Below are positions 2,034 to 47,620 of a DNA stretch of 55,290 nucleotides, in pieces. Both the position numbers and the translations under genes were made by a program. Where the stretch lies: the NCBI GenBank assembly GCA_964500025.1, contig CAZCMQ010000001.1, positions 1-55,290 on the forward strand. The letters are read 5' to 3'. The first letter of the stretch is position 1. Each line of letters begins with the position of its first letter. The notes below the pieces were generated by a model. The model worked only from the letters and a program-made list of their open reading frames with translations. It made no database searches and was not told where the DNA came from. This DNA is from an uncultured Candidatus Saccharibacteria bacterium. Lineage in GTDB: Bacteria > Patescibacteriota > Dojkabacteria > SC72.

Positions 2034-2035
2034 TA

Positions 2036-4238: not shown

Positions 4239-6406
4239 CACTTGCGTGACTGGTTCTTCCCTCCAGTGCTTGACTGCGCCTTTTGAGATTGTAATTTTGA
4301 TTTTTCCTCCGCGTGACGTTGTTGTTGTTGATGCTTCTGTTCACTTTGAACCATACCTTGCTGAGCTTGAGCTTGCTTGGCCTGCATCTGTTGAGCAGTC
4401 TGAGCCATAAAGATTTTTTGTTTATGTTCATCTGCCTTGGCCTGTAGTTGTACTTTTTGGGCTTGGGCCTGAAGATTGATTCTATGTTCTTCGGCTTTCA
4501 TTTTAAGTTCAGCTTCTTTAGAAGCAGCTTCAAGTTGCAGTTTTCGTTCTGCTAAACTGCCCTGAATTTCAGCTTTTTTCTGTTCAGCTTCCATCTTCAT
4601 CTGCATTTCCATCATCTTTGGATCAGGTTTCTGAGGAATCTGAGGCTGTCCAGATTGTGCCATTCCAGGAATCAATTGTTCGTAATTAGGAATCTCCATC
4701 GCATCAAGGATGCGGACAGTGACTTGTCCTGGATCAATCGTGCCCATCGGAATGAGCTGTAATAGAGCTTGGGCTTTGGCCAGTCTTTCTTGCTGTGAAG
4801 AAGCACTTGGATCAGCCGCTGGATAAATATCAAATTCTTCTGTATCAAAATCTCCTGGACCAATAGATTCATCCAAAACTTTAGAAATCGTATGGGGGTC
4901 CAAATAATCCGCGTTCAGTTCGAACAGCTTTTGGAACTCTTCCGTCAGTGAACGATACACCCGTTTGTAAATCGCGGTAAAGACTTTCATCCCCTGTTCG
5001 ATTGAGGCGGTAGTCGTAGTAGCAGGAGTATTTTGTCCAGGCATCTTCCCGACAAAGATTTCCGCAATAGAGGCAAGCTCTTTTCCCGCACCTACAAGGT
5101 ACTCCAACAGTTTCATCAGAGTCGCTGAGGGCTCCTTCGTTGGAAGAGGCATGATCTGTTTCTTGATGTCGTCTCCGGTCGCATTCACCCATTTCCATTC
5201 TCCTGGAGTAAAGGAATAATCTCCTCCTTTGATTCGGAGACCTTTGCCCACAAATCCAGATTGAAGATTGTTGAGAGTACCAGAGTCAATAAGTTGATTG
5301 ACTAGGGTATTTACAGACTCATTTAAAGGACCTAACAGGTGACCAAATCCAAGATCATAAAAAGAACCATCTGGATTTGGAATAAATCCGAATTTGGTAT
5401 AGTATTGCTTTGGAGGAATATAAGTTGGTTTCTCGTTCTTGAATCTAACACGCCGTAAATCAAATCTAGCGGTGATTCTAAGAACTTTACCAGAGTTTTT
5501 CTCAAAAGTTACAATATAAGGTTTCTCAAACTTGTCTTTAGGAAGCTCCAGCCAAGTGTGCTGTTCGATGATTTCGAAAGGCATCACCTTTTCATCAGAC
5601 ATATCCGTAGTTCCTTCAGGACCAATCGGAGTGCCTAGATCTACATCTATATAAAGACCTTCTCGTTGTCTTTCTTTAATCTGACGCTTATATAGAAGAA
5701 TAATCTCAGAGATTCTTTCAGCGGTGCAGAAGTCCTTTGCCCAATAATTGACCACAAGATTATCAATTCCGATAACTTTGGAACAATTTTTATTGGTTTC
5801 GGGATCGAAATAAGTCTTTTTATACATGTTGCCAGTAACACCAACCTGCATAAGAAGCCTATCCATGCCCTCTTCCCAGCCTTCCATATCATGGAGAATC
5901 TGCCAAGACATAAAAGTTCTCACTCGTTTGGCACGAGCTTCTTTTTCATTGTTTGGATCTTTTCCATAGACTTGAGTGGCTACGATCTGCCCATTTGAAG
6001 GGACTAGAGAAGGATAAGCCCTTGCCGAGAACTGCATTGCTGCAATTCCCATCAAGGGAAACTTGACATTAGAGGCATTATTCCAAGGGAAGTTTCTAAT
6101 GTCTTTGCATTGAGTGGCTAGTTTTACCCAATCTTTGATTTCTTCTTCCCATTGTTTTCGAGAAGCAAGATCATTCTCAAATCCTCGCTTGCATTCTTGA
6201 CCAATTTTGATCAAGTCATTTTCTTTGAGATTTTCTGCAAGATTAATCTGAGAAATAATAGAATAAAGAGATTCTTCTTGGGGAGCTTCTTCAACCTCTG
6301 GAAGAGGTTGTTGTGGGGGCATTTGAGGGACTTCAGTAGCCTGTGGTTGTGTTGCGCCCTGCATTACTCCAGCCTGATTCGGCAAGCTCATCGGCATATT
6401 CATCAT
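4238..6406 (-). CDS. Portal protein with long Q/A/K-rich C-terminal helical tail
   Basis: 722-aa ORF immediately downstream of large terminase; size and coiled C-terminal tail recall the P22 portal barrel; start uncertain (several Met between 6364 and 6406). Confidence 0.8.
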   Translation of the reverse strand: MMNMPMSLPNQAGVMQGATQPQATEVPQMPPQQPLPEVEEAPQEESLYSIISQINLAENLKENDLIKIGQECKRGFENDLASRKQWEEEIKDWVKLATQCKDIRNFPWNNASNVKFPLMGIAAMQFSARAYPSLVPSNGQIVATQVYGKDPNNEKEARAKRVRTFMSWQILHDMEGWEEGMDRLLMQVGVTGNMYKKTYFDPETNKNCSKVIGIDNLVVNYWAKDFCTAERISEIILLYKRQIKERQREGLYIDVDLGTPIGPEGTTDMSDEKVMPFEIIEQHTWLELPKDKFEKPYIVTFEKNSGKVLRITARFDLRRVRFKNEKPTYIPPKQYYTKFGFIPNPDGSFYDLGFGHLLGPLNESVNTLVNQLIDSGTLNNLQSGFVGKGLRIKGGDYSFTPGEWKWVNATGDDIKKQIMPLPTKEPSATLMKLLEYLVGAGKELASIAEIFVGKMPGQNTPATTTTASIEQGMKVFTAIYKRVYRSLTEEFQKLFELNADYLDPHTISKVLDESIGPGDFDTEEFDIYPAADPSASSQQERLAKAQALLQLIPMGTIDPGQVTVRILDAMEIPNYEQLIPGMAQSGQPQIPQKPDPKMMEMQMKMEAEQKKAEIQGSLAERKLQLEAASKEAELKMKAEEHRINLQAQAQKVQLQAKADEHKQKIFMAQTAQQMQAKQAQAQQGMVQSEQKHQQQQRHAEEKSKLQSQKAQSSTGGKNQSRK

Positions 6407-7850
6407 CTTCTATTTCCTGTTTTGTGGGATGTTCGATCATAATATCAAGAAGCATTCCTAAATAAGAGAATGCATCCACCTGATCGTCCCACTTACCGCG
6501 TGGGAATTTAGTACATTCGTCTTCAAAAGAAGGATACCAATCCTCATCTTTGTCAAATCTAACTGTTCTTGCTCTCATTCGAGCTTGAATAGACCGACTT
6601 CTCTGAATCTTGTCTTTCCCCAAGTGTTTCATTTTGATAATCTGAGGCCAGACATTCTGGAGAACCATTTCTTCTCTCAAGAAAGGTCCAATTGCCTTGG
6701 TAACTTGCATTTCCTCAAGTCCGATAGCTATTGGATCATAGGTTCTTTGGAGTTGGAGAATGAGATCTACGATTTCTCGGCCATCTAGACGGTCCCGAAT
6801 AACTTCAACAATATGTAGTTTTCTGTCTTCGTCCATTCCTCCGACCACAAATGCGGTATAATCCGCAGTTTCATTCTCAGAGATAGCCAAATCACCAGTA
6901 ATATAATAGACTAACTTCTTTTCTTTCTCTGCATCAGTCAAAGGAACAAAATCTTTTAGTTTAAAGTAGGAATAGGCAGCATCAATCGGTCTATTTAGAA
7001 ACTCTTGAGAGTAGACATCAGGGAGACCTTGAGCAATATAATCATTTCTCTTCTCCACGAAGAACTCTTTATCATACCTCTCCGGCCAAAGAAACTCAGT
7101 GAAGTCGTCATTATGTGCTTTCCACTTCACCGAAACCCAAGCACCTATCTTTTTAGTGGAGTAGAGCTTTAGTCCCTTCTCAATGCTGGTTTTCTCTCCT
7201 TCCTTCGGCATAAAAAACTCTAAAAGAGAGCCATTATGAAGAACAGTGCCCCAAACTCTACACTTTCCTGTAGGAGAGAGACAAGGTAAAAGGGCTCCAT
7301 AGAACCATCTTCTCAGTTTATCTCTTCTATCCTTATTCATCACGGCCTCATCATTCTCCAAATCATCACAAACAATGAGATCAGGACGAGTGCCGTTCCA
7401 ATTCAGACCACGGAGCTTCTGCTCCGCTCCCTTTGCAAGAATCCTGAAGGTATGTCCGTCATTCATGCGGACTATAATATCTCCCTCAGTCTCTTTTACA
7501 AAGTCAATTAAACCCTTTTCATTCTTTTTGACCCCGAAGATCTGTTGAAGTTCTTCGTTGTCTGCTAATTCTTGTCTAATATTCCCAAGAAACATGCACG
7601 CTTGGGATTCTGTGTCCGAAACAATCAAGATAAACTTAGCTTCTCTAAAGAGAGCAGAAGCCAGAATATATGCAAAAGATCCCCCAGTGGTCTTTCCATG
7701 TCCTCTAGGCGCGGCTGCTGCTACATATCTATGCTTTGAACAAGCCAGTTCCCACAACTCATAATGAAATGCAGGAGAAGGAACACTCTGATCAAACCTA
7801 GGAGAGAGAACGCTGCCTACAAACCCACTAATAACATCAGCCGTTAACAT
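6333..7850 (-). CDS. terL: Terminase large subunit
   Basis: 505 aa with Walker A-like APRGHGKTT, a DD(L)E Walker B-like segment (LIVCDDLEND) and a C-terminal nuclease-like region; sits upstream of portal. Confidence 0.9.
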   Translation of the reverse strand: MLTADVISGFVGSVLSPRFDQSVPSPAFHYELWELACSKHRYVAAAAPRGHGKTTGGSFAYILASALFREAKFILIVSDTESQACMFLGNIRQELADNEELQQIFGVKKNEKGLIDFVKETEGDIIVRMNDGHTFRILAKGAEQKLRGLNWNGTRPDLIVCDDLENDEAVMNKDRRDKLRRWFYGALLPCLSPTGKCRVWGTVLHNGSLLEFFMPKEGEKTSIEKGLKLYSTKKIGAWVSVKWKAHNDDFTEFLWPERYDKEFFVEKRNDYIAQGLPDVYSQEFLNRPIDAAYSYFKLKDFVPLTDAEKEKKLVYYITGDLAISENETADYTAFVVGGMDEDRKLHIVEVIRDRLDGREIVDLILQLQRTYDPIAIGLEEMQVTKAIGPFLREEMVLQNVWPQIIKMKHLGKDKIQRSRSIQARMRARTVRFDKDEDWYPSFEDECTKFPRGKWDDQVDAFSYLGMLLDIMIEHPTKQEIEDDEYADELAESGWSNAGRNTTTGY

Positions 7851-8361
7851 TTACGACTTCAATCACTTCCACTCTCTTTTTAGAAAACTCTTCGAATTTC
7901 TTTGCAAGATTGAGCAGAAGATCTGTCTGTTGTTGTTTCTCCTCAACTGGCTTTTTCTCCAATTGAGTGGATCTCTCAAGAAGATCCTTGGCTACAGTGT
8001 GAGCATCTCGAAGTTGTACAGGCTTTCTCCGCATTTCTCCGGTTTTCTGGTCATAGATCCATTCCCCATTCTCAAGCCTATCCAGCGACACATCTAAAGC
8101 CTTATTAGCAATAGCCTTCAATTTATTAGAAAGAGTGATAGTATTCTCAGTCTTGATCTCATTAACGAGTTCAGTCCACCATTTAGAATATCTCCATTCC
8201 TTCATAGTGGTGAGTTTAATATCCAAGGCAGCAGCAGTCGCTGACAGATTACCTGTCACCAACCACAGCTTCACTGCTTCCAATTTCTGAGAATCAGAGT
8301 ACCACCCTTTGGTAATTCTTTTCTTTTTGGACTTTATGTGTGGAATTTTGTCGCTTAACAT
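7837..8361 (-). CDS. terS: Putative terminase small subunit (HTH-containing)
   Basis: 174 aa directly upstream of terL with a 14-nt overlap; N-terminal HTH-like segment (SQKLEAVKLWLVTGNLSATAAALDIKLTTMKEW). Confidence 0.6.
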   Translation of the reverse strand: MLSDKIPHIKSKKKRITKGWYSDSQKLEAVKLWLVTGNLSATAAALDIKLTTMKEWRYSKWWTELVNEIKTENTITLSNKLKAIANKALDVSLDRLENGEWIYDQKTGEMRRKPVQLRDAHTVAKDLLERSTQLEKKPVEEKQQQTDLLLNLAKKFEEFSKKRVEVIEVVNVNG

Positions 8362-8569
8362 TACCCTTTAAACACTCCTTAGTGATCAGGATCTGAAACT
8401 CCTCCGGAGTCTTTACAGTATCCGCCAGTTCTATAATCTTATTAACATCCCAGTTTTCGAAATCTACTGGTACCCCATATGCCGCAGCATAGGCAGAATT
8501 CCCTACTCCCCAACAGTCCACCTGTAATTGAATAGGAAACAAAGAAAGTAAAAACATAATAAAGTTCAT
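8294..8569 (-). CDS. First gene of the leftward arm, hydrophobic N-terminus, unknown function
   Basis: AGGAG 6 nt upstream of the ATG at 8569; the consensus promoter lies about 20 nt further upstream; overlaps the terS start by 68 nt. Confidence 0.55.
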   Translation of the reverse strand: MNFIMFLLSLFPIQLQVDCWGVGNSAYAAAYGVPVDFENWDVNKIIELADTVKTPEEFQILITKECLKGNVKRQNSTHKVQKEKNYQRVVL

Positions 8570-8590: not shown

Positions 8591-8619
8591 ATTATAACAC
8601 AACTGTATCTTTTTGTCAA
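8591..8619 (-). promoter_or_regulatory. Consensus sigma70-type promoter for the leftward arm (TTGACA-17 nt-TATAAT)
   Basis: Minus-strand reading: TTGACAaaaagatacagttgtgtTATAAT, with TGTGTTATAATGT shared with the promoter at 23619. An inverted repeat GTGTTA..TAACAC (8584-8600) overlaps the -10. A palindrome half-site abuts the -35. Confidence 0.65.
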
Positions 8620-8629
8620 TACATGTTAC
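8619..8629. repeat. Half-site of the TAACAT-NN-ATGTTA palindrome (ATACATGTTAC) abutting the -35 of the leftward promoter
   Basis: Read directly; matches one arm plus the centre of the full palindromes. Confidence 0.5.
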
Positions 8630-8938
8630 CTGAAAAAATTATAAAAAATTTATCATACTCTGTTTCCGAGCTCCGTCAGGAGCGAGTTTTCCCCCCTGGG
8701 GGGTCGATTTTTGAGGGGTCGGGAGGGGGGCTGTCGAAGAGGCTGACAGGGTGATTGCTTACTAACAAGCACTTGCACGCTGGCGCCTCATATACTTTGC
8801 TTACAGTTTTCCTACTGTTAGTTAGTGTTTACCTACGTCTTTATGGGTCGCGGACTATGCTTATGGCAGGGTACGCGGCCGGCCTAGGGTGGCCCGAAGG
8901 CAGGGTTCGGCAGGGGGTTGATGTTGCGTGCGAGCAAC

Positions 8939-8950
8939 AACATGCATGTT
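8939..8950. repeat. Palindrome copy AACATGCATGTT
   Basis: Perfect 12-bp palindrome in a non-coding stretch. Confidence 0.85.
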
Positions 8951-9090
8951 AGATCGAGGTAGGGTTTTCCTGATTCTTTTTTTTCGGCACAGCACTTGTT
9001 TTCGTGCTACTCTATAGATCCGTAGTGATTTTTTGGAGTAAATGAGAATGATTCGCAAATTGGTAGGTCTGGTCGGCGGGAGGGGTTGAC

Positions 9091-9300
9091 ATGGCGATGA
9101 CCCGCGCAGAACTCATGGAGTTCGCCGAACTCTCGGCGGCGCTCGCCAAGGACAACGGCTGGAACTACGCCGACCCCGTGGCCACGCACCAAGAAAATCT
9201 CATGGACACCATGGCCGAGCACGGGATCAGGAACCCCGATTACAGTGATGCGCTTGATCTCTACGCGCGGCTTGTCCGCCAATTCGGATTGAGGGGTTGA
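9091..9300 (+). CDS. GC-rich island ORF, 69 aa, unknown function
   Basis: GGGAGGGG Shine-Dalgarno 5 nt before the ATG; GC-rich third codon positions. Confidence 0.6.
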   Translation: MAMTRAELMEFAELSAALAKDNGWNYADPVATHQENLMDTMAEHGIRNPDYSDALDLYARLVRQFGLRG

Positions 9301-9434
9301 CATGCGGACACCGATCTTCGCACGGGCGAGGTGATGAGCATGTGGCCGGCCGATGCGGCGTATGCGGCCCGAGTGCTCGGGTGGCCCCTAGTGGATCAGA
9401 GGGGCTATTGGGCGGATTCTAACTGGAGCTGACC

Positions 9435-9614
9435 ATGAAACTGATCAAAAACTTTCCCGACAACCGGACTAAGGTTTACCAGCAAGATGGCGAGTATATC
9501 GTCCGATTCTTTGACGCCGATGGACGGCATCTGCCCGATGCTGATTATTTTACCGACGACAAAACCGACGCCTTGGCGACTGCCTCGGTGCGATGGATGA
9601 ATCTGGGAGACTGA
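9435..9614 (+). CDS. GC-rich island ORF, 59 aa, unknown function
   Basis: Not in the track (below 60 aa). GGAG 6 nt before the ATG. Sequence: MKLIKNFPDNRTKVYQQDGEYIVRFFDADGRHLPDADYFTDDKTDALATASVRWMNLGD. Confidence 0.55.
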   Translation: MKLIKNFPDNRTKVYQQDGEYIVRFFDADGRHLPDADYFTDDKTDALATASVRWMNLGD

Positions 9615-9685
9615 CATCTAGGCCGAAACCTAGCCCCTCCGGGGGCGATGGTCTGCCGGTATGTGCCGGTACTGACGAGGCTATC

Positions 9686-9892
9686 ATGACACTTCAAGGA
9701 AAAACGGACATGAACCCGCCATTTACGGTCCACCTCACGCGCACCGACTATTCCGCTATCCGCACGGCGCTCTTACTGTATCTGTGGAAGGTACAGGATC
9801 GCATCAAGGGTGGACAGGCAAATCCGTGGGATGCCGGCACCCTGATGAAAATTCAACGCGCATTAAATGCCATCGAGAATCAGTGCAAATAA
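9686..9892 (+). CDS. GC-rich island ORF, 68 aa, unknown function (shorter start within track ORF 9593..9892)
   Basis: GAGG 5 nt before the ATG at 9686; followed by the hairpin terminator at 9907. Confidence 0.55.
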   Translation: MTLQGKTDMNPPFTVHLTRTDYSAIRTALLLYLWKVQDRIKGGQANPWDAGTLMKIQRALNAIENQCK

Positions 9893-9906
9893 TTGACAGG
9901 AATCAC

Positions 9907-9928
9907 AGCCGGCCTAGCGCCGGCTTTT
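9907..9928 (+). terminator. Intrinsic terminator-like hairpin AGCCGGC-ctagc-GCCGGCT + TTT
   Basis: 7-bp GC stem, 5-nt loop, short T run, 15 nt after a stop codon. Confidence 0.6.
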
Positions 9929-9942
9929 AACATGTATGTTAA
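9927..9942. repeat. Palindrome copy TTAACAT-GT-ATGTTAA
   Basis: 7+2+7 inverted repeat; exact reverse complement of the copy at 11818-11833. Confidence 0.85.
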
Positions 9943-9945
9943 GTT

Positions 9946-9959
9946 AGTGAGTACTCACT
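9946..9959. repeat. Second perfect palindrome AGTGAGTACTCACT
   Basis: 14-bp perfect palindrome 3 nt after the previous palindrome. Confidence 0.8.
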
Positions 9960-10063
9960 TCGGAAAAAAGCATGCCAGCCTGGGTTAGGGTTTTCCCTAA
10001 TGTAAGTTTGTATGGGTCGCGGGCGACTAATATACAGACAAGTGTCAGACACTGCGGTTAAAC

Positions 10064-10079
10064 TGGCATGGGTTTTGCT
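10064..10079 (+). promoter_or_regulatory. Sigma54-like -24/-12 element (TGGCAT-N5-TTGCT)
   Basis: ctGGcatgggttttGCtt with GG-N10-GC spacing, about 195 nt upstream of ORF 10274; single occurrence. Confidence 0.3.
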
Positions 10080-10183
10080 TGCAAAATAGTTCTTGTGCCC
10101 GACGTCGGAATACGCTACAATGGGAGTATGGGTCTATGGATTGACTATTGATTCTGGTGTACCGATAGAAAAAATTCATTGGC

Positions 10184-10197
10184 TAACATGCATGTTA
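10184..10197. repeat. Palindrome copy TAACATGCATGTTA
   Basis: Perfect 14-bp palindrome 77 nt upstream of ORF 10274. Confidence 0.85.
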
Positions 10198-10273
10198 CGC
10201 GTGACAGGCCGCCCCGAATCATGAGACTATATGTGTACGGTCACTGTTGACCGCACCTACAGGAGATTGAAAA

Positions 10274-11140
10274 ATGGAAAATGCTACTGCTGTCGTCGCT
10301 GACGGACATTTAGAGCCGATCGGTAAATCGGATGCGCTGGTGCCCCAAGCGATCACTGGTCAGGGTATCGCAAACCTGCTGGCGGAAATCTCGGACGTGT
10401 CCCGCGCTGCGGGACTGGCCGCCACGAAAGCCAAGTTTGAAACGCTGCTGGCCGGAATTTTCGCGCTTGGTCAGGATGCCTTCAAAACCGTCAAAAAAGA
10501 CTTCCGCGATGCGAGGAAAGCGCAGGGATACGAGGATTCCTCGCAGCGGGCGACTGATCTGCACGCAATTTGGGGGGCGAATCAGTGGATCAAACTCCCT
10601 GTGCTGGACGAGAATGGTCAGCCGCTGTATGACACTGTGGTACAGATCGGGGCGGACGGCAAGCCCGTCATGAATCCTAATGATGCGCAGGCGACCGTCG
10701 AAATTCCTCGTATGGCGAATTGGATGCCGCAGGAATCGGAGTATGCATGGAATTCCTGCACCAATGCTGCGCGCGCTGCGCTGAAACTGGCCGGAATCAC
10801 TCCGACCGGCGGAAAGATTTTGACCGACGAGCAAAAAGAGGCGAACAAGGAAAAACGCCTCACGTCGAAAGCCGTGGAAGAGGCGAAGGTTGATCCGATG
10901 ACGCTGTTGTCTATGGCGCCTGAGGAACGGGTCAAGGTGTTGCAGGATCTGGACACGGCGATCCAGAAAAAGCGCGAAGAATTGGAGTACAATGCGCTCG
11001 AAAAATCGGCTGCCCGGATCGGCAAGCGGCTGCTGGAAGATTATTCCGGGCAGGATCTGCTGGATATGCTGACGCTGATCTGCCGGGAAGCCGGATATAA
11101 CTGCCATCTGGAAAAGAGAATCGCCGAAGCCGCCGAGTAA
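10274..11140 (+). CDS. GC-rich island ORF, 288 aa, unknown function
   Basis: AGGAG 7 nt before the ATG and a hairpin terminator 7 nt after the stop; the shadow ORFs on both strands are typical of GC-rich DNA. Confidence 0.7.
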   Translation: MENATAVVADGHLEPIGKSDALVPQAITGQGIANLLAEISDVSRAAGLAATKAKFETLLAGIFALGQDAFKTVKKDFRDARKAQGYEDSSQRATDLHAIWGANQWIKLPVLDENGQPLYDTVVQIGADGKPVMNPNDAQATVEIPRMANWMPQESEYAWNSCTNAARAALKLAGITPTGGKILTDEQKEANKEKRLTSKAVEEAKVDPMTLLSMAPEERVKVLQDLDTAIQKKREELEYNALEKSAARIGKRLLEDYSGQDLLDMLTLICREAGYNCHLEKRIAEAAE

Positions 11141-11146
11141 TCAACT

Positions 11147-11167
11147 AGCCCCCTAATGGGGGCTTTC
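11147..11167 (+). terminator. Hairpin AGCCCCC-taat-GGGGGCT + TTC
   Basis: 7-bp GC stem immediately after the stop of 10274..11140; weak T run. Confidence 0.5.
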
Positions 11168-11183
11168 TCATTAGGAATGAAAC

Positions 11184-11399
11184 ATGGCTTATCAAGTTTG
11201 CTTTTGGGCAAAAGACGGACCGAATGGTGAATCCCATCTTCGCACGGTCCGTCTTACTCGGGTGGCACAGGCCGAATCAATAGCACGGCATCGGATCTTA
11301 GGATGTGTCAGGGTGACCCTTGAACGCACCGACGGTCCGCCGGAAAAGCGGATTCTACGGAATCTGTTTATCAAGCCCGGATACAAAGATCCGTTCTAA
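11184..11399 (+). CDS. GC-rich island ORF, 71 aa, unknown function
   Basis: AGGAA-type SD upstream of the ATG; the stop codon TAA is the first arm of the palindrome at 11397. Confidence 0.6.
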   Translation: MAYQVCFWAKDGPNGESHLRTVRLTRVAQAESIARHRILGCVRVTLERTDGPPEKRILRNLFIKPGYKDPF

Positions 11400-11410
11400 C
11401 ATGCATGTTA
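11397..11410. repeat. Palindrome copy TAACATGCATGTTA
   Basis: Perfect 14-bp palindrome overlapping a stop codon and directly preceding a terminator hairpin. Confidence 0.85.
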
Positions 11411-11431
11411 AAGCCCCTAACGGGGCTTTTT
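11411..11431 (+). terminator. Intrinsic terminator AAGCCCC-taac-GGGGCTT + TTT
   Basis: 7-bp stem, tetraloop, T run. Confidence 0.7.
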
Positions 11432-11449
11432 CCATTTTGGAGTGTAAGA

Positions 11450-11647
11450 ATGAAGCCCGAACAAAAGTTTGATGGTTGGGGAAACCATTGGTTAGTAAAT
11501 CCAAAGACAGGCAAACACTCCGTAATATGCCCATATAAAGGATATGTTTATTTCGAAGGGTGGGTAGGCTGCACGGATTACTATATTTCCGGCGGGGGGG
11601 TTTTTTCTCCCGAGGAATTTATTAAACATACCGCCTTCATGGAATAA
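11450..11647 (+). CDS. Hypothetical protein, 65 aa (start moved downstream of the terminator)
   Basis: GGAG 8 nt before the ATG at 11450; the track start at 11405 would place the terminator hairpin inside the gene. Confidence 0.6.
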   Translation: MKPEQKFDGWGNHWLVNPKTGKHSVICPYKGYVYFEGWVGCTDYYISGGGVFSPEEFIKHTAFME

Positions 11648-11757
11648 ATCTTGTTGTGAATTTTCAACGCTAAATGAAGCGGTTGAATATGTTCATGATT
11701 GTTAGATACAAGGAAAAATCATGATATGGGTATTCTTATATCTGGTAGCTGTAGCTT

Positions 11758-11946
11758 TTGTTCTTCTTTTTTTTAGGGGGTCGAAAATTGTCAGCGGTGA
11801 TTAAAGGGTTCACTTATTTAACATACATGTTAACTTTTTTAAGTGGAATGTTTATCCATCATTTACCATTCCTTTTACTGGTATTGGTAATCCTGGGGGC
11901 TTTCCAACTAATAGTGGTAGAAAAATGGACTTCAGCACACTTTTGA
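11758..11946 (+). CDS. Small hydrophobic ORF (start uncertain; may start at ATG 11828 inside the palindrome)
   Basis: Predicted TM-like stretch LPFLLLVLVILGAFQLIVV; contains palindrome copy 11818-11833. Confidence 0.35.
   Translation: MFFFFLGGRKLSAVIKGFTYLTYMLTFLSGMFIHHLPFLLLVLVILGAFQLIVVEKWTSAHF
11818..11833. repeat. Palindrome copy TTAACAT-AC-ATGTTAA
   Basis: Reverse complement of the copy at 9927-9942; lies in AT-rich DNA outside the GC island. Confidence 0.85.
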
Positions 11947-12080
11947 TTTTTTACATCCTTGCGCTAACTGCGATGAGTAACCCAAACATAGTAAAAAATG
12001 TAAAAACTCTTTTGGCTGATGATGGACTCTCATCAGTTATTATAACCGCCGCAGTCTTTGCTATTTGGAAATGGGCATGA
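11925..12080 (+). CDS. Small membrane-like ORF, 51 aa
   Basis: Not in the track. Sequence: MDFSTLLIFYILALTAMSNPNIVKNVKTLLADDGLSSVIITAAVFAIWKWA; the stop overlaps a following ATG (ATGA). Confidence 0.3.
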   Translation: MDFSTLLIFYILALTAMSNPNIVKNVKTLLADDGLSSVIITAAVFAIWKWA

Positions 12081-12333
12081 AAGGCTATCCACATCTAACT
12101 GCCGGATATACGCATTCTGTTTCGCAGAATATGCTGAAATACAACAAAGCAATCGCTTTTTTGGGAGACAAACTGTGCACACACAAAAAACACAGCCCGA
12201 AAAACAACGGCTACAAGCCAGTGCTATCGCGATGATTGAAATGTTTCTCATCGCTGTCGGTTTTATAGGAATGGGAGTTTCCTTTTTCTATATCGCTTAT
12301 CTTCTTCTTATTGTTGTGGAGGCGTTTTGCTAA
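12058..12333 (+). CDS. Hypothetical protein with C-terminal TM segment (alternative: two micro-ORFs 12077..12235 and 12232..12333)
   Basis: Track ORF with an A/T-rich third position; the frame choice is uncertain. Confidence 0.4.
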   Translation: MLFGNGHERLSTSNCRIYAFCFAEYAEIQQSNRFFGRQTVHTQKTQPEKQRLQASAIAMIEMFLIAVGFIGMGVSFFYIAYLLLIVVEAFC

Positions 12334-12530
12334 TAGTTTTTACCAAAAAAGGCTCTTACCATCGTTTGAAATATGGAGACTTAAAGCCGGAATTAGATTC
12401 CGAGCCTGCCACTATCCAAGTTGATGGAATCGAAATAGAAAAATTGATTTCATTAGAATTGGTCAAAAGCAATATTGCTAAAAAAACTTGGACTGGTGAA
12501 GAGGCAGAAAGACTATGGAAAATACTGTAG
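12327..12530 (+). CDS. Hypothetical protein
   Basis: TTG start 4 nt after GGAGG; co-oriented and tightly packed. Confidence 0.5.
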   Translation: MLIVFTKKGSYHRLKYGDLKPELDSEPATIQVDGIEIEKLISLELVKSNIAKKTWTGEEAERLWKIL

Positions 12531-12763
12531 ATGAATTTGGCAACGAAATCATGTCTGGAGCAGATCTTAGAAAAGCGCAGATAGTAAAAAGACATCTCAT
12601 AGTAAGAGCAAAAAGATACTGTAACTTTGATGATGTAGACATTACTTACTGCGAAGCTGAATACGCAGATCAACCTCCAAAAGAATATTGGCCGGAGTTT
12701 TGTTCTGGGGATATTTGTATTGATCTTCAAACCGGAGAAATAACAGAGGGAGATGGTGTATGA
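12515..12763 (+). CDS. Hypothetical protein
   Basis: Packed early-arm ORF. Confidence 0.6.
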   Translation: MENTVDEFGNEIMSGADLRKAQIVKRHLIVRAKRYCNFDDVDITYCEAEYADQPPKEYWPEFCSGDICIDLQTGEITEGDGV

Positions 12764-13032
12764 AATACAAAAAAGAACTGATTGCTTGGACTAAAGGAGA
12801 AAGACTCCAATTTAAAGATGCGTTTGGCACATGGCAAGATCATCCGGGTATTGATTATGTATCTCTTCCACCGTGTCTAAGAGATACTCAAGAATGGAGA
12901 ATCAAGCCAAAAGAGCAGTATATAGCGCATAGCAGACTGACCGGCGCTTATATAGAAGATATTTCTGAGAATGAATTAGAAGATCTGAAAAAGAATCCGA
13001 ACTACATTCTGTATAAAGCTACGCCACTATGA
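12760..13032 (+). CDS. Hypothetical protein, member of a small paralogue family (AWxxGxxIQ/E ... W/YRIKP)
   Basis: ELIAWTKGERLQFKD..W..EWRIKPKE resembles 13562..13855 and 24637..24783. Confidence 0.65.
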   Translation: MKYKKELIAWTKGERLQFKDAFGTWQDHPGIDYVSLPPCLRDTQEWRIKPKEQYIAHSRLTGAYIEDISENELEDLKKNPNYILYKATPL

Positions 13033-13241
13033 GCTACGCCACCAAATCAAAAGGAAACAAACCAACATGTTTTGGTTTGGTGCGCTGTGGATATCCATAT
13101 TGCCTAGTCAAAGGTGAATGTGAAAATCCTCCCGATCCTGATAATCTTCCAGAAATACTACGCAAGTCTATAGATGTGGACTTGCTTAATCCTTTTGGAG
13201 AATCAAATGACAGAAATGGAAATCCTTCAAAAAGCAAATGA
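13029..13241 (+). CDS. Hypothetical Cys-containing protein
   Basis: ATGA overlap with the upstream gene. Confidence 0.55.
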   Translation: MSYATKSKGNKPTCFGLVRCGYPYCLVKGECENPPDPDNLPEILRKSIDVDLLNPFGESNDRNGNPSKSK

Positions 13242-13407
13242 CACTGTTACAGTGTTGGACAAACCTATTTATGAAATAAAAGTTGCAGGAGTTACTACAG
13301 AATGGACTAAAGATTACGCTGTGGCTGAAGAGGCTTTCAGAGCTTCTAAAAGTATTCACAAAAGAATGTTTCGTATTACCGGCAGTGAAAAGGAAAGAAT
13401 TCGATGA
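13207..13407 (+). CDS. Hypothetical protein (start at GGAGA-preceded ATG 13207)
   Basis: In frame with track ORF 13174..13407; better SD. Confidence 0.55.
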   Translation: MTEMEILQKANDTVTVLDKPIYEIKVAGVTTEWTKDYAVAEEAFRASKSIHKRMFRITGSEKERIR

Positions 13408-13565
13408 AGCCCAATCCACGTAAAAAACGCCCAACACTTGCTGAAAGGCGTCTTGATGCCCGTAGAGTTGATTACAACTCAATGATGGAAGCAGCCAACA
13501 AAGGAGATGGACTGAAAAAACGAGGAATGTCCGGCTATCACAAACCAGGAAGTCTACAAAAATGA
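13404..13565 (+). CDS. Small basic ORF, 53 aa
   Basis: Not in the track. ATGA overlaps at both ends. Sequence: MKPNPRKKRPTLAERRLDARRVDYNSMMEAANKGDGLKKRGMSGYHKPGSLQK. Confidence 0.45.
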   Translation: MKPNPRKKRPTLAERRLDARRVDYNSMMEAANKGDGLKKRGMSGYHKPGSLQK

Positions 13566-13855
13566 CCACTGATGAAATGATCGCCGTTCTTGTAGCTGCA
13601 AAACAAGGCAAGCGTATTCAGGCGAAATCAACTAACTCCATGGGTGGTTGGACGGATTGTCCTTTCCCAAGCTGGGATTTTCGAAATTATGAGTATCGAG
13701 TAAAGCCTACTCCATGGTATGTTATATTAGGGTTTCATGGGGCTTTAATGTTTTCTAGAGTTTACTCTAGTTTAGAAGAAGCAACCCAAGCAAAAAGAGA
13801 GCTTCTAGAAGATGGCGTGACCCGTGACATTTCTATTCATGAGATTCAAAAATGA
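13562..13855 (+). CDS. Hypothetical protein, paralogue-family member
   Basis: MIAVLVAAKQGKRIQAKS..GGWTD..YEYRVKPTP. Confidence 0.65.
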   Translation: MTTDEMIAVLVAAKQGKRIQAKSTNSMGGWTDCPFPSWDFRNYEYRVKPTPWYVILGFHGALMFSRVYSSLEEATQAKRELLEDGVTRDISIHEIQK

Positions 13856-14196
13856 AATACATGCATCTAAGATTTGGGCAAGTTTCGGATGGTAAAGCTA
13901 ACTATTATCCTCGGGGAGGAATGACTTTCGCATGGGAAGTCAAGGATGATGGTTTATCTGTGGGCGTTAGTATTTGTAGTCTTAATGACAATTTTTGTCG
14001 TCGGATCGGGCGTTCTGTAGCCGATGGACGAGTCAATTGGCATTGGAAAAATGAAGATTTCAAAAAAATCCCAACTAACAAAGATATCGCTGAGCAATTA
14101 GCAGAGCAGTTTGTTGGCCTTGATGGTTTTATAGATTATGAATATTACCTTGATTTTCTCAGAAGCAATCCACGCACTCTATACCTAGATGTATGA
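13852..14196 (+). CDS. Hypothetical protein
   Basis: ATGA overlap; 114 aa. Confidence 0.65.
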   Translation: MKYMHLRFGQVSDGKANYYPRGGMTFAWEVKDDGLSVGVSICSLNDNFCRRIGRSVADGRVNWHWKNEDFKKIPTNKDIAEQLAEQFVGLDGFIDYEYYLDFLRSNPRTLYLDV

Positions 14197-14434
14197 TGTA
14201 AACATCGACCTTTCTGCCCGGCGCAACGTTGAGTATGCAAAATGTCGGGCAGTAATTGAACGAGAAGCAAAAAATCGCATGGAAAAACGCCGTGCTAAAC
14301 AAATCGTGATTGAGTTCCTTGGAGGAAAAGTGATGCCAGGACAGGAGGTCATTACTAAAAAACATGGAGAATATGTAAATAAAAAACTCCGAGCCTATGT
14401 AGTATTTCCAGATAATACTAAGGCTGTTCTATAA
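14189..14434 (+). CDS. Hypothetical protein
   Basis: Packed ORF, 81 aa. Confidence 0.6.
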   Translation: MYDVNIDLSARRNVEYAKCRAVIEREAKNRMEKRRAKQIVIEFLGGKVMPGQEVITKKHGEYVNKKLRAYVVFPDNTKAVL

Positions 14435-15713: not shown

Positions 15714-15715
15714 GC

Positions 15716-18715: not shown

Positions 18716-20083
18716 ATGTGTGGTTTGGTAGGAATGCTGAGTAAGCGAAAGCTTGGACTCAATCACGAAGAAATCAATGCTTTCAAGGATCTTCTAACAA
18801 TTGATGTTCTCCGTGGAAAAGATTCTACGGGTGTTTTTAGTGTCGCGAAAAGGGAGTTACAGTTATTTAAGGTTGCTACGCATCCGATGAATGCGTATGA
18901 CACCAAAGAATGGAAAGAATTCGAATCAGACGCACGAAGAAACAGTAAGGTACTGGTGGGCCATAACCGGGCTGCGACGAGAGGGACTGTAAACAGTAAT
19001 AACGCTCATCCGTTCTTAGAAAATAATATTTGCTTAGTTCATAATGGAACTTTGTTTAATCACACAAATCTGAATAAAGATTCAGAAGTAGATAGTCATG
19101 CGATTGCTGTAGCTTTATCAAAAAACAACAATGTTGATGAAGTAATTAATTCCATTTATGGAGCTTTTGCATTAATTTGGTTTAATTCGGATACTAATGA
19201 AGTTATTTTTACGCGGAATAAGGATCGTCCCTTGTTTTATGCTGAAAATAATGACATGGTGGCCATCGGTTCTGAATATCTACCATTGTTTTACTCTTTA
19301 GGTAGAAATAAAATTGATCCAAAAGACATCATTCAAGAAGTTCCAGTTGATGAGATTTTTACCTTTAGTGGAAAGACTTTAAAGAGGAGGAAACTGGCTA
19401 CTCCAGACCCAAAAGGTCATTCGATTTTGAGTGGTGGGAAACACAAATCGGAAACCTCCTCCACTAAAACCAAAGTTATCTTCCATATGGAAGAACTCAA
19501 GAATTATGCAGGGGTTGAAGGAGTTCTAGCACTAGGTAAAATCATTCTTCCGGAAACATTTAAGGGAGAAGATTGTCGCATTACTCTTGAAGGATGGGAA
19601 AAAGAATTTGCAGATGATCTGTTAAATCAGCCATTTTACGAAGCTGAAATTGATCATGTTTCCTATCATAATAGAGGTTCTATGTATTGGTTGTCTTATT
19701 CTTCTCTTAACATGTATGTTGGAGAAGAGTGTGATACATTAGATGAACCAATTCCTACTGCTATTCGGGATCATGTCATTGAGCGTCATTTGTGCGATGA
19801 ATGTGCAATGCCGTTTTCAAAATATAATTTTCATGGTGCCCAAGTTATTCTAGATCCCGCAGATTGCACAATAACTACAACCTGCTCTGATTGCGTCAGA
19901 GCAGAGATGTTTAAAACAGATCCAGAGTTAGGAGATAAGTTCGATGAGTATTTTAATTCTCCCGTACAAGAAAGGAAGCAGAAGCGCGCGAACTTTATGC
20001 ACACATTTGAAAAAATTTCAAACATGCGTGCTCGTTCGACCGGATCTTCCCATCAATCTAAAGAAACACCAGCTTCTAGTTAA
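18716..20083 (+). CDS. Class II (Ntn) glutamine amidotransferase with C-terminal Cys-rich extension
   Basis: N-terminal MCGLVG (Cys nucleophile), GHNRAATRG, NAHPF, LVHNGTLFN; C-terminal CDEC...CSDC. Confidence 0.85.
   Translation: MCGLVGMLSKRKLGLNHEEINAFKDLLTIDVLRGKDSTGVFSVAKRELQLFKVATHPMNAYDTKEWKEFESDARRNSKVLVGHNRAATRGTVNSNNAHPFLENNICLVHNGTLFNHTNLNKDSEVDSHAIAVALSKNNNVDEVINSIYGAFALIWFNSDTNEVIFTRNKDRPLFYAENNDMVAIGSEYLPLFYSLGRNKIDPKDIIQEVPVDEIFTFSGKTLKRRKLATPDPKGHSILSGGKHKSETSSTKTKVIFHMEELKNYAGVEGVLALGKIILPETFKGEDCRITLEGWEKEFADDLLNQPFYEAEIDHVSYHNRGSMYWLSYSSLNMYVGEECDTLDEPIPTAIRDHVIERHLCDECAMPFSKYNFHGAQVILDPADCTITTTCSDCVRAEMFKTDPELGDKFDEYFNSPVQERKQKRANFMHTFEKISNMRARSTGSSHQSKETPASS
19707..19720. 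repeat. Intragenic match to the palindrome (TTAACATGTATGTT)
   Basis: 14-nt identity with the copy at 9927; lies inside the amidotransferase CDS and may be coincidental. Confidence 0.4.
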
Positions 20084-46937: not shown

Positions 46938-47620
46938 CGAACCTGTGGCTTGAAATAAACAGAACCTTCTTCATTACCAAATGAAAGAGCTTCTTCTAAT
47001 GCGTCTTTTGCTCTACGAGCAAGATCTTTCTTTTCTTCAATAGGAAGACCATAATGAGGAGCTTCTCTATCTGCTAATCCATAGATGATAGCTTCTTCCC
47101 ATTCTTCTGGAAAATCAGGAAGGTCTGTAGACAATGAAATAGTATTAGTAGCTTCTTGTACATCTATCCTAGCTTCAACATTTGTGCTAGAATAAGAATC
47201 TGGCCAAGGCCAAAGATATACTTCAGCAAAGGTTTTCTTTGGAACAAAATAAATTTGAGTTGGAACAGCAGTAGGATTACTTGGAATAGATAAATACTCT
47301 TGTCTGGTATAAATATTTAAATTTATAGTTGTCTGACTTAGTGTATCATATCTATTCGCATTGATTAATTTCAATGGGATTGTGGAAGTCACTAAAGTTT
47401 GTCCCGGCCCCATCGTAGCAAACCCGTCTGTGAACAACGACATTGGAAAAGAATATTGTGTGATTTTCCATAAAGGCATTCCCTTCGAGTGGAATGACTT
47501 TAACATGGATGTTAATGCGGAAGATGCTCTTGTGATCTGGTTAGCCGTTGGAGTTTCATTTAATCCTAAGCCACCCGCTCTTTCAAGAGCATCTGTAATA
47601 AGTTGATCGCGTGTTTTCAT
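46931..47620 (-). CDS. Head-to-tail adaptor (P22 gp4-like)
   Basis: N-terminus MKTRDQLITDALERAGGLGLNETPTANQITRASSALTSMLKSFHSKG parallels P22 gp4 (..[37 protein letters not shown]..). Confidence 0.6.
   Translation of the reverse strand: MKTRDQLITDALERAGGLGLNETPTANQITRASSALTSMLKSFHSKGMPLWKITQYSFPMSLFTDGFATMGPGQTLVTSTIPLKLINANRYDTLSQTTINLNIYTRQEYLSIPSNPTAVPTQIYFVPKKTFAEVYLWPWPDSYSSTNVEARIDVQEATNTISLSTDLPDFPEEWEEAIIYGLADREAPHYGLPIEEKKDLARRAKDALEEALSFGNEEGSVYFKPQVRW

What the first reader, a model, noticed from the sequence alone, without database searches (positions are those of the whole stretch)
8619..11833. Family of TAACAT-NN-ATGTTA palindromes punctuating the island, at gene boundaries and next to the leftward promoter
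Five full copies and one half-site lie within 3.2 kb:
- AACATGCATGTT, 8939-8950
- TTAACATGTATGTTAA, 9927-9942
- TAACATGCATGTTA, 10184-10197
- TAACATGCATGTTA, 11397-11410
- TTAACATACATGTTAA, 11818-11833 (the exact reverse complement of the 9927 copy)
- half-site ATACATGTTAC, 8619-8629, touching the -35 of the consensus leftward promoter

One further match, TTAACATGTATGTT, lies inside a CDS at 19707-19720.

All intergenic copies sit at cassette boundaries. One is just after a terminator (9927), one just before a terminator and overlapping a stop codon (11397), and one is 77 nt upstream of a gene (10184). Copies occur both inside the GC-rich DNA and in flanking AT-rich DNA, which ties the island to the phage.

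Candidate roles are operators for a dimeric phage or host regulator that switches early versus late transcription, recombination or cassette-exchange sites, or RNA hairpins. I scanned for the aacatg core by eye and found no other full copy elsewhere in the 55 kb.
Basis: seen in the sequence. Interest (0 to 1): 0.7.

Follow-up and report, generated by a model that had tools for sequence, protein, structure and literature searches.

The report
Phage-specific palindromes at early-gene junctions
A 14-base palindrome (TAACAT-NN-ATGTTA) is repeated between the first genes that this bacterial virus switches on, each related virus carries its own version, and selection preserves it, so it is probably a docking site for a still unidentified paired DNA-binding protein.

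Summary
AACATNNATGTT occurs 7 times in the window against 0.12 expected, and five copies lie within 8938-11833.

The motif is not peculiar to the GC-rich island. The window is a roughly 55 kb virulent-type phage from a large, mostly uncultivated family. Its only cultured relative is Alcaligenes phage vB_Af_QDWS535. Many family members carry their own short palindrome 4-11 times in the first kilobases of the early operon. Copies sit after stop codons, before ribosome-binding sites, beside tRNA ends and beside terminators. Shuffled sequence, unrelated viral contigs and the late regions of the same phages give at most 2-4 copies.

Three near-identical strains show selection on the motif. None of 84 arm positions changed, against 7.2% divergence in the neighbouring non-coding DNA. 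The only change is central. Gene content between the palindromes differs among these strains, but the break points are not at the palindromes.

The centres occur in both orientations, the hairpins are marginal, and the sites lie downstream of promoters rather than on them.

Best reading: binding sites for a lineage-specific dimeric DNA-binding protein that acts within the early transcription unit. No binder was identified. The closest analogues are the Cluster O mycobacteriophage 17-bp palindromes and stoperators.

The parts
8938..8951 (.). Palindrome copy 1, CAACATGCATGTTA (13 of 14). It lies in the 450-nt GC-rich non-coding leader, 140 nt before ORF 9091.
   Evidence: Conserved 14/14 in strains L255 and L257 although the flanking non-coding DNA differs by 7-9%.
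9927..9942 (.). Palindrome copy 2, TTAACATGTATGTTAA. It lies directly after the terminator-like hairpin that closes the first three-gene block.
   Evidence: The arms are conserved in L255 and L257. The only substitution seen in any copy is central (9935 T>C in L257).
10184..10197 (.). Palindrome copy 3, TAACATGCATGTTA. It ends 77 nt upstream of the 288-aa ORF (10274-11140).
   Evidence: Conserved in L255, L256 and L257.
11397..11410 (.). Palindrome copy 4, TAACATGCATGTTA. Its TAA is the stop codon of ORF 11184-11399, and it abuts the terminator hairpin at 11410-11429. It lies at the GC-rich to AT-rich transition.
   Evidence: It lies inside a 458-bp segment (11249-11706) that strain L255 lacks, so this copy is dispensable.
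11818..11833 (.). Palindrome copy 5, TTAACATACATGTTAA, the reverse complement of copy 2. It lies in AT-rich backbone DNA, 13 nt after a 27-codon ORF.
   Evidence: Conserved in L255 and L256.
19708..19721 (.). Near-perfect copy, TAACATGTATGTTG (13 of 14), inside the glutamine amidotransferase-like ORF 18716-20083.
   Evidence: The identical sequence is present in L255.
47501..47514 (.). The arms are perfect and the centre is GG. It lies inside late ORF 46931-47620 on the minus strand.
8616..8629 (.). Half-site plus centre (GTCAATACATGTTA, 10 of 14) overlapping the -35 of the leftward promoter. Doubtful as a member of the family.
   Evidence: Half-sites occur at chance frequency outside the island.
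8591..8619 (-). Consensus sigma-70 promoter (TTGACA-17-TATAAT with TG) driving the small and large terminase operon. The family conserves such promoters in the divergent region.
   Evidence: Equivalent 12/12 promoters occur in L041 in both directions and in QDWS535 towards the early genes.
8655..11430 (+). GC-rich (about 55%) start of the early operon. It carries ORFs 9091-9300, 9435-9614, 9686-9892, 10274-11140 and 11184-11399, two long non-coding stretches, and copies 1-4.
   Evidence: The 288-aa ORF has no detectable homologue. The 59-aa ORF has homologues in early regions of Pseudomonas phages and in family member L057.

Best explanation
The palindromes are recognition sites on double-stranded DNA for a sequence-specific protein that binds as a symmetric dimer. 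The protein is probably phage-encoded and evolves together with its site in each lineage of this phage family.

The sites are spread at intervals of about 0.25-1.4 kb through the first kilobases of the early, host-RNA-polymerase-transcribed operon. They lie mainly in the short gaps between genes, tRNAs and terminators. They are downstream of the strong consensus promoters rather than on them.

My inference is that the bound protein acts on the transcribed early unit as a whole. It most plausibly blocks or slows elongating RNA polymerase to shut off or grade early expression, as stoperators do. Alternatively it may organise this DNA segment.

Shown: the motif exists, it is dyad-symmetric, it is confined to the early region, it recurs across the family with lineage-specific sequences, and its arms are under purifying selection.

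Inferred: that a protein binds it, which protein, and what binding does.
For: 1. Symmetry. The 6-bp arms are invariant and the 2-bp centre varies (GC, GT, AC, GG). The GT copy at 9927 and the AC copy at 11818 are reverse complements within the same transcription unit, so the motif has no polarity. QDWS535 shows the same thing, with centres CA in 4 copies and TG in 3.

2. Selection. In strains L255 and L257, 0 of 84 arm positions changed against 104 of 1444 (7.2%) in the adjoining non-coding DNA. That is binomial P about 0.002 if the strains are independent, or 0.03 and 0.065 taken singly. The one change is central. L060 and L080 are 77-88% identical and keep TTCTTAAGAA intact at 7 orthologous positions, including inside a 608-aa ORF and in the late region.

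3. Family-wide, lineage-specific motifs:
- QDWS535: TCCTAA-YR-TTAGGA, 11 copies, 9 of them in the early region
- L041: TTAACA-N-TGTTAA, 9 copies
- L060 and L080: TTCTTAAGAA, 10 and 8 copies
- L057: 8 copies
- L051 and L015: 7 copies each
- L029: 9 copies
- L182 and L204: 5 copies each

Controls for point 3:
- Shuffles give at most 3 copies.
- Of 51 unrelated viral contigs, most give 2 and none gives more than 4.
- The late regions of the same phages give 2-3.

4. Some copies are held inside conserved coding sequence, for example L041 2363, which encodes HTVNTVNG in a variable loop of the amidotransferase. This fits selection for the DNA site itself.

5. Hairpins are marginal, at -0.3 to -4.3 kcal/mol as RNA or DNA.

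6. The sites are not on promoters. The 12/12 consensus promoters lie 0.3-1.4 kb upstream of the first copies.

7. Precedent. The Cluster O mycobacteriophage 17-bp dyad repeats have the same properties, and their authors reached the same inference (PMC4351075). Stoperators are repressor sites that stop elongation (PMC9283540).
Against: No DNA-binding protein was found:
- Pfam on about 55 window ORFs gave no HTH, RHH or AbrB domain.
- The one small early protein conserved in the family (13852-14196, 118 homologues) has no Pfam or PDB match. Its model has only insignificant PUR/Whirly-like resemblance (E about 1), and QDWS535 lacks the protein although it has palindromes.
- The 68-aa island ORF that looked RHH-like folds as a helical hairpin.

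Other points against:
- L029 uses both 3- and 4-bp spacers, which a rigid dimer tolerates poorly.
- Half-site spacing ranges from 0 to 8 bp across the family.
- Copies are enriched right at stop codons, ribosome-binding sites and tRNA ends: 45 of 103 against 22 expected, P about 5e-7, with tRNA ends 0-4 nt away. This would also suit an RNA-level or junction-specific role.
- In the window the copies cover only the first 3.2 kb, not the whole early region.
- A host protein cannot be excluded.
Confidence: 0.45

Rival explanations
1. The palindromes are cassette-junction or recombination sites. They would be the points at which early genes and tRNAs are gained, lost or swapped, as with PeSL elements or integron sites. 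Any regulatory role would be secondary.
For: - Copies sit at unit boundaries, including directly against tRNA ends.
- Early gene content is hypervariable in the family.
- In the window, segments between copies differ in GC content: 56, 55, 45, 55 and 39%.
- The phage's own palindrome punctuates compositionally foreign DNA.
- Gene content between copies 1 and 2, and between copies 3 and 5, differs among three near-identical strains.
- Two L029/L033 homology blocks end exactly at a palindrome.
Against: - All three recent events between the window and L255, and the replacement in L257, have break points 69-500 nt from any palindrome with 1-3 nt of microhomology.
- Block ends within 10 nt of a palindrome number 3 of about 25 against about 1 expected, which is not significant.
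- No integrase or other site-specific recombinase was detected. Only an HNH_3 endonuclease and a 5'-3' exonuclease were found.
- At 10-16 bp the sites are short for homologous exchange.
- Lineage-specific sequences would hinder exchange between lineages.
- Some copies lie inside conserved genes.
Confidence: 0.15
2. The motif works at the RNA level. Within the polycistronic early transcript it would be a processing, stability or translation-control signal, bound by a phage or host RNA-binding protein or cut by a nuclease, that separates cistrons and tRNAs.
For: - All early copies lie in transcribed DNA downstream of consensus promoters.
- Many lie 2-17 nt before a Shine-Dalgarno sequence and start codon, or supply it themselves. 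In QDWS535 the TTAGGA arm serves as the ribosome-binding site.
- Copies abut tRNA 3' or 5' ends and terminators.
- The variable spacers in L029 resemble hairpin loops.
Against: - Asymmetric centres occur in both orientations relative to transcription.
- Hairpins are barely stable.
- There is no Rfam match.
- TTCTTAAGAA has no spacer at all.
- In the window, none of the 5 copies lies within 30 nt of a start codon.
- Conserved copies exist inside ORFs and on the late strand (47501; L060/L080 15311).
Confidence: 0.15
3. The palindromes are sites for a host protein, such as a global regulator or a nucleoid protein, that each phage has adapted to in its own host.
For: No phage-encoded binder was found. 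The motif differs between phages that presumably have different hosts.
Against: - At least ten different palindromes with spacers from 0 to 8 bp occur within one phage family. This fits a fast-evolving phage factor better.
- The exact 14-mer occurs only as single scattered hits in species-representative bacterial and archaeal genomes and in viral contigs, with no clustered copies.
Confidence: 0.1
4. The pattern is chance, a compositional effect or an assembly artefact.
For: The Logan contigs L081 and L082 cover only the GC-rich part of the region and end near palindromes or hairpins.
Against: - 7 copies against 0.12 expected.
- The same motif occurs in the AT-rich backbone.
- An independent 46.5-kb contig from another sample (L255) carries the same arrangement across both junctions.
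- The phenomenon recurs across the family.
Confidence: 0.01

Closest known systems
Cluster O mycobacteriophage 17-bp dyad repeats, TGTTCGG-N3-CCGAACA (Corndog and relatives; PMC4351075)
   Same: - Invariant inverted arms with a variable centre.
- No orientation bias relative to transcription.
- Many copies are intergenic or near gene starts, and some lie inside ORFs.
- The phages are apparently lytic.
- The sites are not associated with promoters.
- The sites are not used in the indels that distinguish close relatives.
- The binder and function are unknown, and the authors predict a dimeric DNA-binding protein.
   Different: - The sequence and arm length differ (7+3+7 against 6+2+6), as do the host and the phage lineage.
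- Cluster O has more than 30 copies spread across the genome, with one motif shared by the whole cluster.
- Here there are 5-11 copies concentrated in the first kilobases of the early operon.
- Here every lineage of the family has a different palindrome.
Stoperators of Cluster A mycobacteriophages (L5, Bxb1; PMC9283540, PMC6550527)
   Same: Many copies of one short site lie in short intergenic gaps within transcription units and away from promoters. The mechanism I infer, a bound protein stopping elongation, is theirs.
   Different: - Stoperators are asymmetric 13-14 bp sites.
- They are oriented with respect to transcription.
- They are bound by a monomeric immunity repressor of temperate phages.
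- Here the sites are palindromic and unoriented.
- No repressor or integrase gene was seen in the ORFs scanned, and the phage looks virulent.
PeSL cassettes of T4-type phages (PMC2839356, PMC4122927)
   Same: A repeated short element punctuates a hyperplastic region of small, variable early genes. The idea of a regulatory element that also shapes modular gene flux applies to both.
   Different: - PeSLs are composite: a sigma-70 early promoter plus a stable terminator stem-loop. Recombination between them is documented.
- Here there is no promoter at the sites and the hairpins are only marginal.
- The recent indels here do not join at the sites.
Start-associated sequences of Cluster K mycobacteriophages (PMC3203893)
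   Same: A repeated 13-bp class of motif lies immediately upstream of start codons. In QDWS535, L041 and L051 many palindromes are 2-17 nt from a start codon or contain the Shine-Dalgarno sequence.
   Different: - Start-associated sequences are asymmetric and tightly tied to translation starts.
- Here the motif is a palindrome. It is also found after tRNAs, beside terminators and inside ORFs.
- In the window none of the five copies is start-adjacent.

Membership tests
Stoperators (Cluster A mycobacteriophages) | Asymmetric 13-14 bp site with a fixed orientation relative to transcription | tested here: not met
   The sites are perfect palindromes. The asymmetric centres occur in both orientations.
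Stoperators (Cluster A mycobacteriophages) | A cognate immunity repressor encoded by a temperate phage | tested here: not met
   No repressor-like HTH protein or integrase was found by Pfam or PHROGs in about 55 ORFs. Not every small ORF was scanned.
Stoperators (Cluster A mycobacteriophages) | Many copies in short intergenic gaps, away from promoters | tested here: met
Cluster O-type dyad repeats | Invariant inverted arms, variable centre, no orientation bias | tested here: met
Cluster O-type dyad repeats | The sequence TGTTCGG-N3-CCGAACA, with more than 30 copies across the genome | tested here: not met
   The sequence is different. There are 7 copies, 5 of them within 3 kb.
Cluster O-type dyad repeats | Repeats are not the end points of indels between close relatives | tested here: met
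   Break points lie 69-500 nt from the palindromes.
PeSL (T4-type promoter-early stem-loop) | A sigma-70 early promoter within the repeat | tested here: not met
   No conserved -35 or -10 element flanks the copies. The promoter scan finds none at the sites.
PeSL (T4-type promoter-early stem-loop) | A stable stem-loop that terminates transcription | tested here: not met
   Predicted stability is -1.2 to -2.6 kcal/mol for the window copies. Separate GC-rich terminators lie beside two copies.
PeSL (T4-type promoter-early stem-loop) | Indels between close relatives join at the repeats | tested here: not met
Start-associated sequences (Cluster K) | An asymmetric motif 3-8 bp upstream of start codons | tested here: not met
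   The motif is a palindrome. In the window 0 of 5 copies lie within 30 nt of a start. In relatives 30 of 103 do, against 12 expected.
Integron attC / site-specific recombination sites | An adjacent integrase or recombinase, with folded sites of about 60-140 nt or a 30-bp core | tested here: not met
   No recombinase domain was found. The sites are 10-16 bp.
Lambdoid-type operators | Clustered sites overlapping the -35 and -10 of divergent promoters, next to a repressor gene | tested here: not met
   Only a chance-level half-site touches the -35. Full sites lie 0.3-3.2 kb from the promoter, spaced 0.25-1.2 kb apart.
Known structured RNA families (Rfam) | A match to a curated covariance model | tested here: not met
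   No match at gathering score. Only sub-threshold chance-level matches were found.

The most novel reading that the evidence does not exclude
A large, almost entirely uncultivated family of roughly 50 kb virulent phages uses a previously undescribed 'punctuation' system. A fast-evolving phage protein and its lineage-specific palindrome mark nearly every junction in the early operon, including tRNA boundaries. This would give gene-by-gene control of early transcription, acting as a symmetric stoperator in a lytic phage, or would insulate newly acquired genes. The binder would belong to a protein family with no recognisable DNA-binding domain.
Probability: 0.3. Interest if true: 0.75.

Novelty: new variant of a known kind. 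Interest (0 to 1): 0.58.

Why it matters
Dispersed dyad repeats of unknown function have been noted in a few phage clusters. Their binder and purpose have never been worked out.

This case offers three things:
- The same architecture recurs in many lineages of one family, each with a different palindrome. That is a natural covariation series for finding the binder and its recognition code.
- A cultured member, Alcaligenes phage vB_Af_QDWS535, has 11 clean sites, so the question is directly testable.
- There is population-level evidence that the arms are under selection while the genes between them turn over.

If the sites are elongation blocks or insulators in a lytic phage, that would be a new way of timing early genes. 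It would also provide a set of orthogonal protein-site pairs for synthetic biology.

Tried and rejected
- Restriction-site avoidance or composition. CATG, ACATGT, ATGCAT and the half-sites occur at expected frequencies outside the island.
- The same motif in relatives. It is absent from 1.09 Mb of IMG/VR relatives and 0.6 Mb of metagenome relatives, apart from one chance hit.
- The exact 14-mer in IMG/VR and in species-representative genomes. Only single scattered matches were found, and in the viral-contig loci no relaxed second copy lay nearby.
- Structured RNA. There were no Rfam hits.
- Virion RNA polymerase with hairpin promoters, as in N4. The 1610-aa virion protein has no RNA polymerase signal in PHROGs, Pfam or PDB.
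- Binder hunt:
  - Pfam on about 55 ORFs found nothing.
  - The conserved 114-aa early protein was modelled at pLDDT 71, with no significant fold match.
  - The 68-aa ORF was modelled at pLDDT 74 as a helical hairpin, not RHH. Its distant library hits are Ig-repeat proteins and are probably spurious.
  - The HTH of the small terminase aligned across motif types gave no specificity pattern separable from phylogeny.
- Homology of the 288-aa ORF to the family's first early protein. Only a weak 30-residue local similarity to the QDWS535 first early protein was found (hhalign E 0.003, probability 11%), so this was not accepted.
- Coincidence of homology-block ends with palindromes in L060/L080 and L029/L033. 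It was not significant.
- Literature. No paper mentions QDWS535, and none describes this element.

Full report
**1. Observation**

AACATNNATGTT matches 7 times in 55,290 bp against 0.12 expected from dinucleotide-preserving shuffles, and no shuffle gave more than one.

Five copies lie within 8938-11833, spaced 990, 256, 1213 and 422 bp apart. One 13/14 copy lies in an ORF at 19708-19721.

I also ran a test that corrects for choosing the best palindrome after the fact. It takes the largest copy number over all palindromes with 5-bp arms and 0-8 bp gaps. It gives 5 for 8600-16000 against at most 2 in 60 Markov shuffles.

The half-site at 8619-8629 does touch the -35 of a 12/12 consensus promoter with TG on the minus strand. 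Isolated half-sites, however, occur at chance frequency.

**2. What the window is**

The window is a phage genome of about 55 kb.
- Late and structural genes run on the minus strand (37262-55290 and 1-8569). They include the large terminase (6333-7850), portal, Mu-GpT-like capsid, GroES-like protein and lysozyme.
- Early and replication genes run on the plus strand from about 9090 to 37234. They include an amidotransferase, amidoligase and ATP-grasp cluster, dCMP deaminase, a DnaB-like helicase, a split family-A polymerase, ThyX, a 5'-3' exonuclease, an HNH endonuclease and ribonucleotide reductase.
- No tRNA and no RNA polymerase were found.

The palindromes occupy the very start of the early operon, most of it a 55% GC stretch (8655-11430) in a 40% GC genome.

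**3. The motif is a family trait with lineage-specific sequences**

The large terminase retrieves 80 IMG/VR loci and 80 metagenome loci at 41-63% identity. It also retrieves one cultured phage, Alcaligenes phage vB_Af_QDWS535, at 56%.

None of them has the window's motif, and the small early genes are hardly conserved. Many of them nevertheless carry their own dispersed palindrome in the equivalent region upstream of the terminase operon:

| Phage or locus | Palindrome | Copies |
|---|---|---|
| QDWS535 | TCCTAA-YR-TTAGGA | 11 (9 within 42.0-48.1 kb) |
| L041 | TTAACA-N-TGTTAA | 9 |
| L060 / L080 | TTCTTAAGAA | 10 / 8 |
| L057 | GTTTAA-N6-TTAAAC | 8 |
| L051 | TTTAAA-N2-TTTAAA | 7 |
| L015 | TTACA-N4-TGTAA | 7 |
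| L029 | TTACA-N3/4-TGTAA | 9 |
| L049 | TTAAC-N4-GTTAA | 4 |
| L182 | TTAAC-N3-GTTAA | 5 |
| L204 | TTACA-N3-TGTAA | 5 |
| L201 | TTAAT-N3-ATTAA | 4 |
| L077 | TAATC-N1/2-GATTA | 4-8 |
| L065 | ATTCC-N8-GGAAT | 4 |

Controls:
- Shuffles of each region give at most 3 copies.
- Of 51 unrelated viral contigs, most give 2 and none gives more than 4.
- The late halves of the same loci give 2-3.

Read as TTAAC-N6-GTTAA, the window's motif shares its arm with several relatives that use other spacers.

**4. Where the copies sit**

In sense orientation the copies lie in five kinds of position:
- immediately after stop codons, or containing them;
- 2-17 nt before a Shine-Dalgarno sequence and start codon, or supplying it, as the TTAGGA arm does in QDWS535;
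- directly against tRNA genes;
- next to GC-rich terminators;
- occasionally inside conserved ORFs.

ARAGORN confirms the tRNA contacts. The L015 tRNA-Met 3' end is 1 nt from a copy, the L051 tRNA-Leu 3' end is 0 nt away, and an L029 copy lies 4 nt before the 5' end of tRNA-Leu.

With crude gene calls, 45 of 103 copies lie at a start or stop against 22 expected (P about 5e-7).

The family has 12/12 consensus sigma-70 promoters in the divergent region. The window has one towards the terminase operon, L041 has one in each direction, and QDWS535 has one towards the early genes. The palindromes lie 0.3-1.4 kb or more downstream, inside the transcribed unit and not on promoters.

**5. DNA or RNA**

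Asymmetric centres occur in both orientations within one transcription unit:
- window: GT at 9927 and AC at 11818;
- QDWS535: CA in 4 copies and TG in 3;
- L057: mixed.

Predicted hairpins are marginal, at -0.3 to -4.3 kcal/mol. There is no Rfam match. This favours symmetric recognition of duplex DNA.

On the other side, the variable 3- and 4-bp spacers in L029 and the closeness to ribosome-binding sites and tRNA ends keep an RNA-level role alive.

**6. Close strains give the best functional evidence**

A library search with the 68-aa island ORF turned up near-identical proteins. Their contigs are strains of the window phage:
- L255, a 46.5-kb contig at 94-98% nucleotide identity;
- L256;
- L257.

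Differences from the window:
- L255 lacks window 9020-9414, which holds the 69-aa ORF.
- L255 also lacks 11249-11706, which holds the end of the 71-aa ORF, palindrome 4, its terminator and the 65-aa ORF.
- L255 replaces 11942-12075 with 387 unrelated bp.
- L257 carries a different 75-aa ORF in place of 9059-9434 and lacks about 9467-9692.

Every break point, however, lies 69-500 nt from a palindrome and shows only 1-3 nt of microhomology.

Across the non-coding DNA around the copies, 104 of 1444 positions differ (7.2%), but 0 of 84 arm positions do. That is P about 0.002 if the two strains are independent, or 0.03 and 0.065 singly. The single change in any copy is central (9935 T>C).

L060 and L080, at 77-88% identity, likewise keep all seven orthologous TTCTTAAGAA copies.

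The arms are therefore under purifying selection, the centre is free, and the sites are not the cross-over points of the events that can be seen.

**7. The binder**

I could not identify one.
- Pfam and PHROGs on about 55 ORFs show no HTH, RHH or AbrB domain.
- The only small early protein conserved in the family (13852-14196) has 118 homologues, all hypothetical. It has no Pfam or PDB sequence match. Its model (pLDDT 71) has only insignificant PUR/Whirly-like similarity. QDWS535 lacks it.
- The 68-aa ORF is not RHH-like.
- The small-terminase HTH does not sort by motif type beyond phylogeny.
- The exact 14-mer shows no clustering in any representative bacterial or archaeal genome.

**8. Interpretation**

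The data fit sites for a lineage-specific dimeric DNA-binding protein acting within the early operon. I favour an elongation block or a graded shut-off of early genes, by analogy with stoperators (PMC9283540). This step is inference.

The closest documented parallel is the 17-bp dyad repeat of Cluster O mycobacteriophages. It has the same symmetry, the same lack of polarity, the same partly intergenic distribution and the same independence from promoters and indels. Its function is also unknown (PMC4351075).

PeSL cassettes (PMC2839356) and start-associated sequences (PMC3203893) share the idea of punctuating early genes, but they fail on the defining features tested here.

**9. The island**

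The GC-rich stretch is real and linked to the backbone. An independent contig, L255, spans both junctions, and the same palindrome occurs in AT-rich DNA. It is a hot spot of gene turnover.

How foreign-looking DNA comes to carry the resident palindrome remains unexplained. Possible answers are a GC-richer donor with the same specificity, selection in place, or insertion next to existing sites.

**10. Verdict**

This is a real, selected element conserved across a phage family in lineage-specific form. It is a new variant of a known but unexplained kind of phage repeat. A cultured relative makes it directly testable.

Noticed in passing
window 8591-8619 (-); L041 8593-8621 (-) and 8710-8738 (+); L174 48576-48604 (-): Perfect 12/12 sigma-70 consensus promoters with an extended -10 TG are conserved in the divergent region of this phage family. 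In the window only the one facing the terminase operon is present. The spot where the rightward partner would be expected is occupied by the GC-rich DNA.
   Followed up: partly
window 9020-9414, 11249-11706 and 11942-12075, compared with L255; window 9059-9434 and about 9467-9692, compared with L257: Near-identical strains from other sequencing runs differ by deletions or replacements of small early ORFs. The junctions have 1-3 nt of microhomology. A 13-codon remnant ORF at window 9049-9090 shares its first codons with a 75-aa ORF in L257.
   Followed up: yes
window 8820-8853 and 9986-10022: The two long non-coding stretches of the island share a roughly 40-nt element, GTTAG(T/G)GTTT...TATGGGTCGCGG. 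The motif TAGGGTTTTCC is also shared (8960-8970 and 9986-9996). Their function is unknown, and neither matches Rfam.
   Followed up: partly
window 9073-9093 and 9284-9304: A translation-start block, TCGG..GAGGGGTTGACATG, is duplicated before two adjacent island ORFs.
   Followed up: no
window 8663-8710: Two hairpins, one terminator-like (TTTCCCCCCTGGGGGG followed by a T-run), lie right after the divergent promoter region at the left edge of the GC-rich DNA. This could be an attenuator or a short RNA.
   Followed up: no
window 13852-14196: A 114-aa early protein belongs to a family of at least 118 roughly 100-aa proteins found on about 50 kb viral contigs. The family shares invariant D46 and R54 and nearly invariant H5, C42 and S43. 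It has no Pfam, PDB or fold match.
   Followed up: yes
window 15716-20702, 21640-21999, 24317-24640 and 29849-30565: A cluster of glutamine amidotransferases, a COOH-NH2 ligase-type amidoligase, an ATP-grasp protein and a GNAT protein lies with dCMP deaminase and ThyX, and is conserved in QDWS535. From general knowledge, such gene sets are linked to DNA base hypermodification or peptide tagging.
   Followed up: no
window 32735-33316: An HNH_3 homing-type endonuclease ORF sits among the replication genes.
   Followed up: no
L041 1-8000; L073 1-10000; L033 1-10000: Other repeats occur in relatives. GGACCGACC is scattered through the L041 early region. L073 has 10-18 copies of a CCTTAGCGGGGC-like unit. 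L033 has a GCCGCC/GGCGGCGTAGGC repeat.
   Followed up: no
L015 9914-9988; L051 9922-9995; L041 8892-8966; L029 8412-8486: Relatives carry a tRNA gene (Gly or Trp) on the late strand near the terminase genes, plus 1-3 tRNAs in the early region. The window has none.
   Followed up: no
window 10274-11140: The 288-aa island protein has no homologue among 5.8 billion proteins other than itself. It shows a weak 30-residue similarity (WNSCTNAARAALKLAGIT...) to the first early protein of QDWS535, which occupies the same position: promoter, protein of about 200-290 aa, palindrome, terminator.
   Followed up: partly
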